This document shows, piece by piece, positions 9,001 to 12,000 of a stretch of 25,323 nucleotides of DNA. The stretch lies in UHGV virus genome UHGV-0083182; one strand, given 5' to 3'. The stretch comes from a virus. Position 1 is the first letter of the stretch. Each line of letters begins with the position of its first letter. The position numbers were made by a program.

Positions 9001-12000
9001 ATTAGTCAATAACTTAAAGTTAAAATTATTGTAGGAAAATTCTATGTTTTTGATTTTTAGTTAATTATTATTGCTTGTTCGGTGAGCGACGGTTATCAAG
9101 TATGAAGGGGTATAGAAGCTAGGATAGATGAGTTTTGGCTAGCTGGGTTAATAAAAAACCCGGCTCTGAGGCCGGGGGAGAGGGCTAAAGCAGAACTGAA
9201 TACCAGAAAACTTTTCCGATAATCTCCACGCTTTGAGTATCTGCTTCTTCGTCAGGGTAATCTTCACTGTTATAACTGCGTATGATTAGTTTTCCACCGG
9301 GGCGTCTGTACAATAGCTTTATACGCTTCAGTTTTTCATCACCGACACCAGGCTGTGCGATGGCGTAGAGTTTGCCGTCAACAATACGTTTGTTGTTTGT
9401 GTCTACTGCGATTGTTGTTCCATCTGGTATCACGGGTTCCATGCTATCACCAGTAGCCGGAAAACAAAGCACACCAGAACCATCACTGTTAGCTCCGACA
9501 CGGCGCAGGGTTGCTTTTGAGAAGCGTAATTTAAAACCATTATGATCTTCGCAATGAACTCTTCCGTCACCGCATGCAAACTCAATGTCTTTCAGATATG
9601 GCACCTCAACTTCATCATCTCGTAGTGGTGTATTTCTGTCCCAAGTTTCAAGGGAACCCCATTCTGATTCGTTTGGAATAGAAGGTCGCTGTTTTACGGA
9701 TGGCTCGTTACTGCCATACTCCAACCACTCCGGCTTCACGGAAAGCCAGTCACTAAGTGCCAAAATACTTGTTTTTTCTGGAATTGATGCAGAATTAAGC
9801 CATTTCCAGATCCCCGGTTCAGAGATATCAATGCCTCGCAGTTTCATTGCATTCTGAATCCGCTTAGCCTGACCGCGTCCGCCCACACCTGCATCTAATA
9901 ATGCCTGTAGTAGTCTCTTTGAGAACGCTTCTTTTAGTTCATCTTTTTTAACCATACGTTAATTATCAAACATAGTTGACATAACTGTCAGCTAATAGTT
10001 AACATTAACTCGAAGTTAACTAAATTAATGGATAGCAGTATGAATCCGATACAATTCGCAGTAAAAGCTGTTGGTGGTCAAACAGTCGCTGCCCGTTTAT
10101 GCGGGTTGTCAAATGTTGCAATTCATAAGTGGGTTAAAAACGGAGCGTTACCTCGCACCGAATACACGATGAAAACCAACTATTCGGAAATTCTCGCCAA
10201 TGCATCTGATGGCAAATTTACCGCCGAATGGTTACGCAATGTAGCGAATCCTGATCGTCAACGATAAGCTCAATTAACACTGCTCTTTTCACAATGGACA
10301 TTCGTCCTACGTCGCTGAAAAGCGAGCCCCAAGATATCTGACCAACTAAGGCCATATGCGTTTCCACGCATACCTTTCAACTAACTATTCACTATTTGGA
10401 ATCATAAGAAATGTCACAAACAAGTTACAGCAAACTGTCGCAGCGCGATATCGATCGCGCTGAAACGGATTTACTTATCAACCTGTCAGCTCTGACGCAA
10501 AGGGGACTGGCGAAGATGATTGGCTGCCATGAATCGAAGGTCAGTCGTACCGACTGGCGATACATTGCGGCGATTTTATGTGCGTTCCAGATGGCATCTG
10601 ATATCAGTCCGATCAGCCGGGCTTTCCAGCATGCCATTCACGTTCATGCAAATAAAAAACGTCCGGTTGGGGCCGGACGTTCTGAGCAAATCCTGATGAA
10701 TATCTGATATTCAGGCAGGGCATGGAGCAATACACGGGAATAATTCTGCCACATCTGGAAGAATTTCGCCAGCAACAACACCAACCGCAGCAGCCTGAAG
10801 CCGATTGGGTTAACCCGGAGATACCGGGACCGTCTGTGAAGATGTGCAGTCACACCAATGTGCAGTCACACCAACCGCAGCAGCCTGAAGCCGATTGGGT
10901 TAACCCGGGAGATACCGGGACCGTCTGCGGTATGGAGTAAATCTTGTATGCGAGGGGACTATGCGTAATTACGCAACAATTTCACCTCAGTTCTGGTTAG
11001 GCGATACAGGGCGAAAACTAAGGAAGTCTGGTCCGGAATGTATGGTAGTGGCGTTGTATATGATGACCTCGCCTCATTCCAATATGCTGGGCCTTTATTA
11101 CCTGCCTGTTTTGTACATTGCTCACGAAACCGGACTTGATCCTGAAGGGGCTTCTAAGGGGCTTCAAATGGCTTGCGAGGCTGGTTTTTGCAGCTATGAC
11201 CATGATTCTGAGGTTGTATGGGTGCATGAAATGGCAGCATGGCAGGTTGGTGAATCGCTGAAACCTGGCGATAACCGTTGTGCTGGGGTAAGAAATGAAT
11301 ATTCCGCGTTGCTGGAAAATCCTTTTTTATCATCATTTTATGATAGATATAAGGATGATTTCCACCTGGATGTCAGACGTGAATCATGTCGGAAAATTGA
11401 AGCCCCTTCAGAGCCCCTTTCAAGCCAAGAACAGGAACAGGAACAGGAACAGGAACAGGAAAGAGATAAAACCCTTCTGGTCCATGGCGAAAAAATCGCC
11501 ACGGACCCACTGGTGGATTCTTGTCCCGTTCTGACTGAACGTCCAGGACCAGCTGGCATGACACCGGAAGCAGATTCCGGGCGTTGTGTGCAGCAGGTGC
11601 TGCTCGTCGAACCGGAGCAACAACACCAACCGCAGCAGCCTGAAGCCGATTCCGCGATGAGCGGGAAGCCGATTGGGTTAACCCGGGCGATGCCGGGACC
11701 GTCTGCGGGACGAGTTGATTATCCTGACGTGTTCGAACGGGTCTGGCGTGAATATCCGCATCGGGCAGGGTCAAACCCGAAGAAATCCGCGTTCAATGCC
11801 TGGAGGGCCAGATTACGCGAAGGGGTGTCACCGGATGTCGTGCTGGATGGCGTGAGGCGTTACGCAAGATACCTGGAGGCTACCGGGAAAGCGGGAACTG
11901 AATTTGTTCAGCAGGCATCGACGTTTTTTGGCCCGAACAGGAATTTCGAAAATCCGTGGTCGCTGCCGAAGGCTGGCGCAGTCAGCCTGCGTTGCGTGAA

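What the first reader, a model, noticed from the sequence alone, without database searches (positions are those of the whole stretch)
10776..11708. ~55-bp palindrome-containing repeat present twice upstream of, and once inside, the replication initiator gene
Two near-perfect direct copies sit between cII and the replication gene, and a third, interrupted copy lies inside the gene (11619-11708). The unit contains GGGTTAACCC and CCCGG..CCGGG palindromes. The upstream copies are read in a different frame from the genic copy, so conservation is at DNA level. This is consistent with initiator-binding iterons or an origin, or with a recombination scar that duplicated an internal gene segment.
Basis: seen in the sequence. 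Interest (0 to 1): 0.45.

Follow-up and report, generated by a model that had tools for sequence, protein, structure and literature searches.

The report
Duplicated replication-gene linker upstream of gene
A 60-90-base piece of the DNA that encodes a floppy, dispensable linker in this prophage's replication-initiator gene has been copied upstream of the gene, where its copy number drifts from one to three; it is most likely a recombination scar, because the probable initiator-binding sites lie elsewhere inside the gene.

Summary
The repeat is real. Two direct copies lie between cII and the replication gene (A 10771-10839, B 10861-10930). A third copy, interrupted by 23 nt, lies inside the gene (C 11616-11708). 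None is expected by chance.

The genic copy is the ancestral one. It encodes the end of a disordered, hypervariable linker, and rep genes that have no upstream copies still carry it.

Upstream copies occur only in this cII-linked lineage (the "Eru4" type, Shigella phage 75/02 family). Their number varies from 1 to 3. They have exchanged sequence with genic alleles. In three E. coli genomes, recombination between an upstream copy and the genic copy has deleted the N-terminal two-thirds of rep.

The 72-codon ORF laid over the array is not conserved. No promoter, known RNA family or significant fold was found in the array.

A much better origin candidate exists. The 9-mer AAGGGGCTT forms two 11-bp-phased clusters (11145-11165 and 11399-11419) that flank an AT-rich trough. 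These clusters are kept in 66-69 of 73 rep homologues, and the second cluster flips orientation between them.

Verdict: this is a segmental duplication or recombination scar at a module junction. It is recombinogenic and probably neutral, and it is not the iteron set. Interest is low.

The parts
10771..10839 (+). Upstream copy A. It is the short form, lacking the 23-nt segment, and has a 1-nt deletion in CCCGG(G)AG. Its 5' 36 nt are identical to the genic copy.
10842..10874 (+). Spacer between A and B. It is a 16-nt tandem repeat, ATGTGCAGTCACACCA, present 2.1 times, whose end runs into copy B. The TCACACC string resembles the genic allele of other rep lineages.
10861..10930 (+). Upstream copy B, also the short form. 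Its 3' end (CTGCGG) matches the genic copy. Its GGGAGATACC variant equals the genic allele of relative L129.
11616..11708 (+). Genic copy C, the ancestral source. It encodes residues about 219-250 of Rep, the end of the disordered linker. It holds the extra 23 nt (11652-11674) between two GAAGCCGATT repeats.
10722..10940 (+). ORF72, annotated as a hypothetical protein (phrog_2751), laid over the array. It is probably not a gene: its length is 72, 42, 51 or 41 codons depending on copy number, and PGAP calls nothing here in L009.
10961..12049 (+). The rep gene (replication initiator or replisome organiser, 'Eru4' type; phrog_1701; no Pfam family). The model has a folded N-domain (residues 1-142), a disordered linker (143-251) and a folded C-domain (252-337).
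10652..10724 (-). Context: an oop-like antisense RNA over the 3' end of cII. It has a minus-strand terminator at 10683-10656. Homology to the lambda cII-O intergenic region fades near 10770, where copy A begins, so the array sits at a module junction.
11145..11165 (+). Not part of the repeat: candidate iteron cluster 1, AAGGGGCTT twice at 11-bp spacing. This is the better origin candidate against which the finding is judged.
11399..11419 (-). Not part of the repeat: candidate iteron cluster 2, the same 9-mer twice, inverted here and direct in other lineages. An AT-rich trough (11290-11380) precedes it and (GAACAG)5.5 at 11429-11461 follows it.

Best explanation
The upstream array is a segmental duplication of the DNA that encodes the end of Rep's disordered linker. 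It sits at the junction between the lambda-like cII/oop block and the rep/dnaC-like module. It is a recombination scar with no dedicated function.

Inferred history:
1. An unequal or illegitimate exchange placed one copy of the linker segment in front of rep. The right junction shows microhomology (GGGAYGARGT) between the sequence after copy C and the sequence ahead of the rep start. That microhomology was read by eye from L009 and not tested against chance.
2. Slippage between the two GAAGCCGATT repeats removed 23 nt.
3. Unequal crossing-over then made a tandem array of 1-3 units.
4. Gene conversion with genic alleles keeps reshuffling the copies.

Its demonstrable present-day effect is as a substrate for homologous recombination. 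It produces copy-number changes and, when an upstream copy pairs with the genic copy, deletion of the rep N-domain together with the probable origin.

Shown: the anatomy, the ancestry of the genic copy, the restriction to one lineage, the copy-number polymorphism, the deletion product, and the absence of conserved coding or structure.

Inferred: the order of events and the neutrality.
For: **The genic copy is ancestral.**
- It is present at about 80% identity in rep genes with other N-domains and other upstream contexts: Tritos and L010, L017-L026, L129 and L130.
- None of those has an upstream copy.

**The segment is dispensable and slippage-prone.**
- It lies in a linker with pLDDT below 50, residues 143-251.
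- The linker is hypervariable in length. The 302-aa Klebsiella-type homologues lack the segment altogether, while P0006 has expanded it and P0008 and P0010 have contracted it.
- 24-nt indels between GAAGCCGAT repeats recur inside intact genes (L017 vs L019, L005 vs L010).
- The window lineage reads about 29 nt of the segment out of frame relative to Tritos, through a compensated -1/+1 frameshift pair.

**The array is confined to one lineage and is unstable.**
- Rep is at least 96% identical in all 78 E. coli genomes that carry it, and those genomes also carry the array (78 genomes in each).
- Upstream copy number is 1 (L006, L007, L015, L096, L099, L111, L112), 2 (most loci) or 3 (L009, long form).
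- L008 and two sister genomes carry the A/C recombinant with the rep N-terminus deleted.

**The upstream copies are patchworks of genic alleles.**
- L009's three copies share GATGCC and the 23-nt segment with their own genic copy.
- L013-type loci combine an L009-type genic copy with short window-type upstream copies.
- Copy B's GGGAGATACC equals L129's genic allele.
- TCACACC, CCC-GGA and CTGTG match the L017/Tritos alleles.

**No sign of another function was found.**
- ORF72 is not conserved.
- No promoter-like site lies in the array.
- No Rfam family matches it.
- Folding energies are not significant, with z between +0.1 and -1.7.
- Single loci carry mutations that break the palindromes (L001 CCCAGG, L123 GGGTTATCCC, L099).

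**The array starts at a module junction.** It begins where homology to lambda's cII-oop-pO region ends.
Against: - Every genome with this rep allele keeps at least one upstream copy; no intact zero-copy variant was seen. A neutral scar should sometimes be lost. However, homologous recombination can only reduce the array to one copy, and removing that last copy against the genic copy destroys rep. The lineage is also young.
- Between the window and L009, the units differ slightly less than their immediate flanks: about 3% against about 8%. These are small hand counts and are not significant.
- The CCCGG-N6-CCGGG inverted repeat is retained in the Tritos-type genic allele with a different loop. 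This could reflect structure, or simply the conserved P-E...T-G codons.
- No experiment was possible, so neutrality is an inference.
Confidence: 0.62

Rival explanations
1. The units are auxiliary cis-acting replication sites: iteron-like binding sites for Rep, the DnaC-like loader or a host protein. With the genic copy they would bracket the origin and loop or enhance it, as crr does for the phage P4 origin or oriR for SPP1.
For: - The direct repeats bracket the rep N-half, which holds the probable origin.
- The short motif GAAGCCGATT recurs 4 times exactly and once with a mismatch, and only here in 25 kb.
- At least one upstream copy is kept in every member of the lineage.
- In other rep lineages, true iteron clusters do occur just upstream of rep as well as inside it.
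Against: - The unit is 60-93 nt, GC-rich (0.60-0.68), unphased (spacings of 90, 113 and about 750 nt), and has no AT-rich neighbour.
- Copy number is not fixed.
- The genic copy follows the C-terminal module and is kept with an unrelated N-domain (L130). It is absent from many homologues that keep the AAGGGGCTT clusters.
- Relatives with the same linker have no upstream copies.
- The array contains no AAGGGGCTT.
Confidence: 0.1
2. The array is a regulatory leader. It could be an upstream element of the antisense (oop-like) promoter, which it abuts. It could instead be an RNA element in the pR transcript that tunes rep translation.
For: - The array starts about 45 nt upstream of the predicted 5' end of the oop-like RNA.
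- It ends 30 nt before the rep start codon.
- Each unit can form a 5-bp GC hairpin.
Against: - No promoter-like site was found in or at the array.
- Folding is not better than for shuffled sequence.
- Copy number and unit length vary.
- Nothing in the array is complementary to the rep Shine-Dalgarno sequence GAGGGG (reading).
- Lambda itself has only 32 nt between cII and O.
Confidence: 0.1
3. ORF72 (10722-10940) is a real small protein whose repeated peptide mimics part of the Rep linker.
For: - The ORF is open in most members, is annotated in the phage records, and forms a PHROG.
- Its first 28 residues are conserved, and the left half of each unit is read in the rep frame.
Against: - The ORF is 72, 42, 51 or 41 codons long with unrelated C-termini.
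- In L009 it stops inside the first unit, and PGAP calls no gene there.
- The two units within one ORF are read in different frames after the 1-nt indel.
- The G-rich stretch ahead of the ATG is only 1-3 nt away (reading).
- It has no Pfam or NCBIfam family.
- Its 5' end lies antisense to the oop-like RNA and its promoter region.
Confidence: 0.08

Closest known systems
Segmental or tandem duplications and mosaic-junction scars in lambdoid phage genomes (general knowledge of modular phage evolution by illegitimate and homologous recombination; recalled from memory, not from a paper read here)
   Same: - It is a copy of an internal gene segment placed at a module boundary.
- It shows junction microhomology and tandem amplification.
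- It shows copy-number polymorphism, gene conversion and deletion products between the direct repeats.
   Different: This instance does not appear in the papers searched here. The two papers that define the Eru replication types do not mention any repeat. The duplicated piece is unusual in being coding DNA for a disordered linker that tolerates frameshifts.
Phage lambda ori iterons inside gene O (annotated in NC_001416)
   Same: The repeats lie in the part of an initiator gene that encodes the inter-domain linker. The gene is transcribed from pR downstream of cII and oop.
   Different: - Lambda has four 18-bp sites about 20-24 bp apart, lying roughly 100-170 bp upstream of the ori nick sites annotated in the record.
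- Here the unit is 60-93 nt, GC-rich, 90 to about 750 nt apart, variable in number and absent from relatives.
- The lambda-like pattern is met instead by the AAGGGGCTT clusters at 11145-11165 and 11399-11419.
Split origins: phage P4 ori plus crr, SPP1 oriL (inside gene 38) plus oriR, and P1 incC/incA iterons flanking repA (recalled from memory)
   Same: In each, related repeats occur at two places, one in or next to the initiator gene.
   Different: - In those systems the repeats are the initiator's short binding sites and are required or regulatory.
- Here the shared sequence is not the conserved short motif of this initiator family.
- No binding or requirement is known for it.

Membership tests
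Origin iterons (initiator-binding direct repeats) | Several short repeats (about 17-22 bp) in helical phase | tested here: not met
   The units are 60-93 nt at spacings of 90, 113 and about 750 nt. The inner 10-mer GAAGCCGATT is spaced irregularly, 23-24 and 90 nt between exact copies and about 75 nt from the one-mismatch copy at 11567.
Origin iterons (initiator-binding direct repeats) | An adjacent AT-rich unwinding region | tested here: not met
   GC content is 0.55-0.68 across the array and copy C. The only AT-rich trough (GC 0.28-0.33) is at 11290-11380, between the AAGGGGCTT clusters.
Origin iterons (initiator-binding direct repeats) | Conserved with, and co-varying with, the initiator's DNA-binding domain across relatives | tested here: not met
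   Upstream copies are absent from rep homologues at 46-70% identity. The genic copy is kept with an unrelated N-domain (L130) and is missing from many homologues with the same N-domain. By contrast, AAGGGGCTT is kept in 66-69 of 73.
Origin iterons (initiator-binding direct repeats) | Bound by the initiator and required for replication | not testable with these tools
   This needs EMSA or footprinting and mini-replicon assays.
Segmental duplication / recombination scar | One copy is ancestral and the others are restricted to one lineage | tested here: met
   The genic copy is present in the Tritos, L010, L017-L026, L129 and L130 rep genes. Upstream copies occur only in the cII-linked lineage, where rep is at least 96% identical.
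Segmental duplication / recombination scar | Copy-number polymorphism and recombination products between copies | tested here: met
   There are 1, 2 or 3 upstream units. The A/C recombinant that deletes the rep N-terminus is present in L008.
Segmental duplication / recombination scar | No sequence constraint beyond descent (neutrality) | tested here: inconclusive
   Single-locus mutations break the palindromes and folding is not significant. However, the lineage is too young, and gene conversion too active, to measure constraint.
Protein-coding gene (ORF72, phrog_2751) | Reading frame and length conserved among relatives | tested here: not met
   The ORF is 72, 42, 51 or 41 codons with different C-termini, and it is not annotated in L009.
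Structured RNA or known RNA family in the array | A match to an Rfam model, or folding beyond shuffled controls | tested here: not met
   There is no Rfam match in 10771-10930 or 11616-11708 at E up to 1. Folding z-scores range from +0.1 to -1.7.

The most novel reading that the evidence does not exclude
The upstream units are kept by selection, in one of two ways.

- They could be a second set of cis-acting sites for a replication partner that recognises the linker DNA, such as the Rep C-domain/DnaC-like loader complex or a host factor.
- They could be homology arms that, with the genic copy, bracket the origin-specific N-domain cassette. The cassette could then be swapped or excised as a unit.

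The evidence does not exclude either reading. Every member keeps at least one copy, and the repeats do bracket the probable origin.
Probability: 0.1. Interest if true: 0.45.

Novelty: new member of a known kind. Interest (0 to 1): 0.2.

Why it matters
Taken alone, it matters little. It is an undescribed but ordinary example of how phage replication modules carry duplication scars.

It has three practical uses:
- **Annotation.** The "hypothetical protein" annotated between cII and rep in Shigella phage 75/02, POCJ13 and many E. coli prophages is probably not a gene.
- **Prophage decay.** The direct repeats give a ready route to replication-defective prophages, through deletion of the rep N-domain. 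This bears on the stability and inducibility of these Stx1-type prophages.
- **Where to map the origin.** Ruling the repeat out as the origin points origin mapping in the uncharacterised "Eru4" replication type to the AAGGGGCTT clusters inside rep.

Tried and rejected
- **Protein families.** Pfam and NCBIfam gave nothing informative for Rep or ORF72. The only hit was a weak match of the last 24 residues to the DnaT C-terminus.
- **RNA families.** Rfam found nothing in the array at gathering score, or at E up to 1.
- **Promoters and terminators.** The scan found no site in the array.
- **Single-strand folding.** The three units were folded on both strands, and none differed significantly from shuffled sequence.
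- **Source of the 5' flank.** A search for homologues of 10630-10775, to find where the junction came from, returned only the same lineage plus cII matches. An alignment with lambda shows homology through cII and oop that fades by about 10770.
- **Concerted evolution.** I first read the shared GATGCC in all four L009 copies as co-evolution of upstream and genic copies. I dropped that reading when L013-type loci showed discordant combinations.
- **GAAGCCGATT read in two frames.** I first took this as evidence for a DNA-level function. It is explained instead by a compensated frameshift in this lineage: relatives read all the EADS repeats in one frame.
- **Fold search.** The Rep model gave only weak winged-helix matches, with no E-value below 0.03.
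- **Literature.** The two Eru papers do not mention repeats or origins for this type. Searching for the motif strings returned only unrelated papers.

Full report
**Context**

The window is a lambdoid prophage of the Shigella phage 75/02 Stx / POCJ13 / phiSTEC1589 group. It is 98-99% identical to them over 10400-12100. Over 10700-10965 it is 100% identical to a prophage of E. coli O104:H4.

The local gene order is:
- cI-like repressor, 9185-9955 (-)
- cro-like, 10028-10267
- cII, 10411-10707 (Pfam Phage_CII)
- a 72-codon ORF, 10722-10940
- rep, 10961-12049
- a DnaC/IstB-like ATPase, 12056-12796
- a DUF1627 protein

. This rep plus ATPase pair is the "Eru4" replication type of Stx phages. The authors who defined that type describe its first gene as a protein of unknown function, and they do not mention any repeat or origin for it (PMC8951638; PMC8044961).

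- Copy A (10771-10839) and copy B (10861-10930) share about 60 nt at 98% identity.
- Copy C (11616-11708) matches A over 36/36 nt. It then carries 23 extra bases, and then matches B over 44 nt at 95.5%.
- Shuffled windows give no matches to either half of the repeat.
- The 23 extra bases end in GAAGCCGATT, the same 10-mer that precedes them. The short upstream form is therefore what slippage between those two 10-mers would leave.
- The frame statement is only half right. ORF72 and rep both read QQHQPQQPEAD across the left half, and diverge only in the right half.

**Which copy came first**

The genic copy is ancestral.
- It is found at about 80% DNA identity in rep genes with a different N-terminal domain: phage Tritos and relatives, and L010.
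- It is also found in rep genes with a 70%-identical N-domain in a non-cII context (L017-L026).
- It is found in L129 and L130 as well. L130 has an unrelated N-domain.
- None of these has any copy upstream of rep.

**What the genic copy encodes**

An AlphaFold model built on 32 homologues shows three parts:
- a confident N-domain, residues 1-142
- a linker, residues 143-251, with pLDDT below 50
- a confident C-domain, residues 252-337

Copy C encodes residues about 219-250, the end of the linker.

The alignment shows that this linker is hypervariable.
- The common 302-residue Klebsiella/Raoultella homologues lack the segment altogether.
- P0006 has extra EADS repeats.
- P0008 and P0010 have large deletions between those repeats.
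- Indels of 24 nt between GAAGCCGAT repeats separate otherwise near-identical intact genes (L017 vs L019; L005 vs L010).

Relative to the Tritos type, the window lineage carries a -1 and a +1 indel about 29 nt apart. It therefore reads GKPIGLTR where relatives read READRVVP. This also explains why GAAGCCGATT is read in two frames in this gene.

The source segment is therefore dispensable, slippage-prone, frameshift-tolerant coding DNA.

**Behaviour of the upstream copies**

- Among complete E. coli genomes, 78 carry this rep allele, all at 96% identity or more. The same number, 78, carry the array region.
- Across 54 loci, the upstream copy number is two in most. It is one in L006, L007, L015, L096, L099, L111 and L112. 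It is three in L009, which has a 113-nt period and keeps the 23-nt segment.
- In L008 and two sister genomes, cII is followed by a hybrid unit with an upstream-type left half and a genic-type right half. This hybrid runs straight into the rep C-terminal region, out of frame. It is the product expected from recombination between an upstream copy and copy C, and it has removed the N-terminal two-thirds of rep.
- The copies are patchworks.
  - L009's upstream units share GATGCC with their own genic copy.
  - L013-type loci pair an L009-type genic copy with window-type upstream units.
  - Copy B's GGGAGATACC equals the genic allele of L129.
  - TCACACC, CCC-GGA and CTGTG in the upstream units match the L017/Tritos alleles.
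- Single loci carry substitutions that break GGGTTAACCC or the CCCGG/CCGGG pair.

**Other possible functions**

- **ORF72.** It is 72, 42, 51 or 41 codons long depending on the array, with unrelated C-termini. NCBI's pipeline calls no gene in L009's 410-bp spacer.
- **Promoters.** No promoter-like site falls in the array.
- **RNA families.** No Rfam family matches it, even at E up to 1.
- **Folding.** The units do not fold better than shuffled sequence.
- **Position.** The array begins where homology to lambda's cII-oop-pO region fades, near 10770. An oop-like antisense RNA lies just to its left. It has a minus-strand terminator at 10683-10656 and a sub-threshold Rfam Hrs13 match at 10652-10724. 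The array therefore sits at a module junction.

**Where the origin probably is**

The 9-mer AAGGGGCTT occurs twice at 11-bp spacing at 11145-11165. It occurs twice more, inverted, at 11399-11419. The two sites flank the only AT-rich trough of the region (GC 0.28-0.33 at 11290-11380), and a (GAACAG)5.5 run follows them.

Across 73 distinct rep homologues with 48-100% identical N-domains:
- 69 have at least two hits at the first site.
- 66 have at least two hits at the second site.
- 162 of 171 neighbouring hits are exactly 11 nt apart.
- The second cluster is inverted in 50, direct in 17 and mixed in 6. The encoded peptide switches between EGASKGL and EAPSKPL accordingly.

In the first cluster, the two glycine codons are GGG in 131 of 137 cases, against 152 of 663 elsewhere in the N-domain. 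Some lineages carry a third cluster just upstream of the rep start.

These are the sequence hallmarks of iterons. The finding's repeat has none of them and contains no AAGGGGCTT.

**Conclusion**

The repeat is a segmental duplication of linker-coding DNA at the cII/oop-rep junction. It has been amplified and contracted by unequal crossing-over, homogenised in patches by gene conversion, and occasionally used to delete rep.

I put this at about 0.6. Three rivals stay open at about 0.1 each, because no binding, replication or expression assay could be run:
- auxiliary replication sites
- a regulatory leader
- a real small protein

One fact leans towards function: no intact zero-copy variant was seen. 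This has a simple neutral explanation. Homologous recombination can reduce the array only to one unit, and losing the last unit against copy C destroys rep.

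Noticed in passing
window 11145-11165 (+), 11399-11419 (-), AT-rich 11290-11380, (GAACAG)n 11429-11461: This is the probable replication origin of this Pfam-less initiator family. AAGGGGCTT forms two 11-bp-phased clusters inside rep, kept in 66-69 of 73 homologues. The second cluster is inverted in 50, direct in 17 and mixed in 6, so the encoded peptide flips between EGASKGL and EAPSKPL. GGG is used for 96% of the motif's glycines against 23% elsewhere. Some lineages (L027, L028, L038-L067) add a third cluster just upstream of rep. 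The motif-string search returned only unrelated papers, and the two Eru papers read here do not mention it.
   Followed up: yes
window 10652-10724 (-), terminator 10683-10656: An oop-like antisense RNA lies over the 3' end of cII. It has an intrinsic terminator on the minus strand and aligns with lambda's oop/cII 3' region. It gives a sub-threshold Rfam match to Hrs13 (28.3 bits, gathering score 52, E 1e-4) and a weaker one to AgvB. A candidate promoter, TGGCGA-17-CAGAAT, read by eye on the minus strand at about 10742-10770, abuts the array. It was not found by the scan.
   Followed up: partly
L008 (NZ_CM129855.1, E. coli SW071611) 1671-2082; also SW071619 and SW07163: This prophage's rep gene has lost its N-terminal two-thirds by recombination between an upstream repeat unit and the genic copy. 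It is a natural replication-defective derivative.
   Followed up: yes
window 12007-12046 (last 24-28 residues of Rep): The C-terminal tail of Rep (…ISEPDTEIPPGFRG) weakly matches the C-terminus of primosomal protein DnaT (NCBIfam PRK02854, E about 0.01; PDB 2ru8, 6aep and 9zbt, E 0.008-0.03). This explains the old 'primosomal protein I' annotation and hints at a shared partner-binding peptide.
   Followed up: partly
window 15964-16146, 16988-17078, 21530-22016: Rfam matches at gathering score elsewhere in the window: isrK (15964-16037), C4 antisense RNA (16063-16146), sRNA-Xcc1 (16988-17078), and two tandem STnc100 copies (21530-21741 and 21803-22016).
   Followed up: no
window 11487-11501: A GGCGA-AAAAA-TCGCC palindrome lies in the linker-coding region, downstream of the second AAGGGGCTT cluster. 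It is conserved in Tritos as GGCGTAAAAAACGCC.
   Followed up: no
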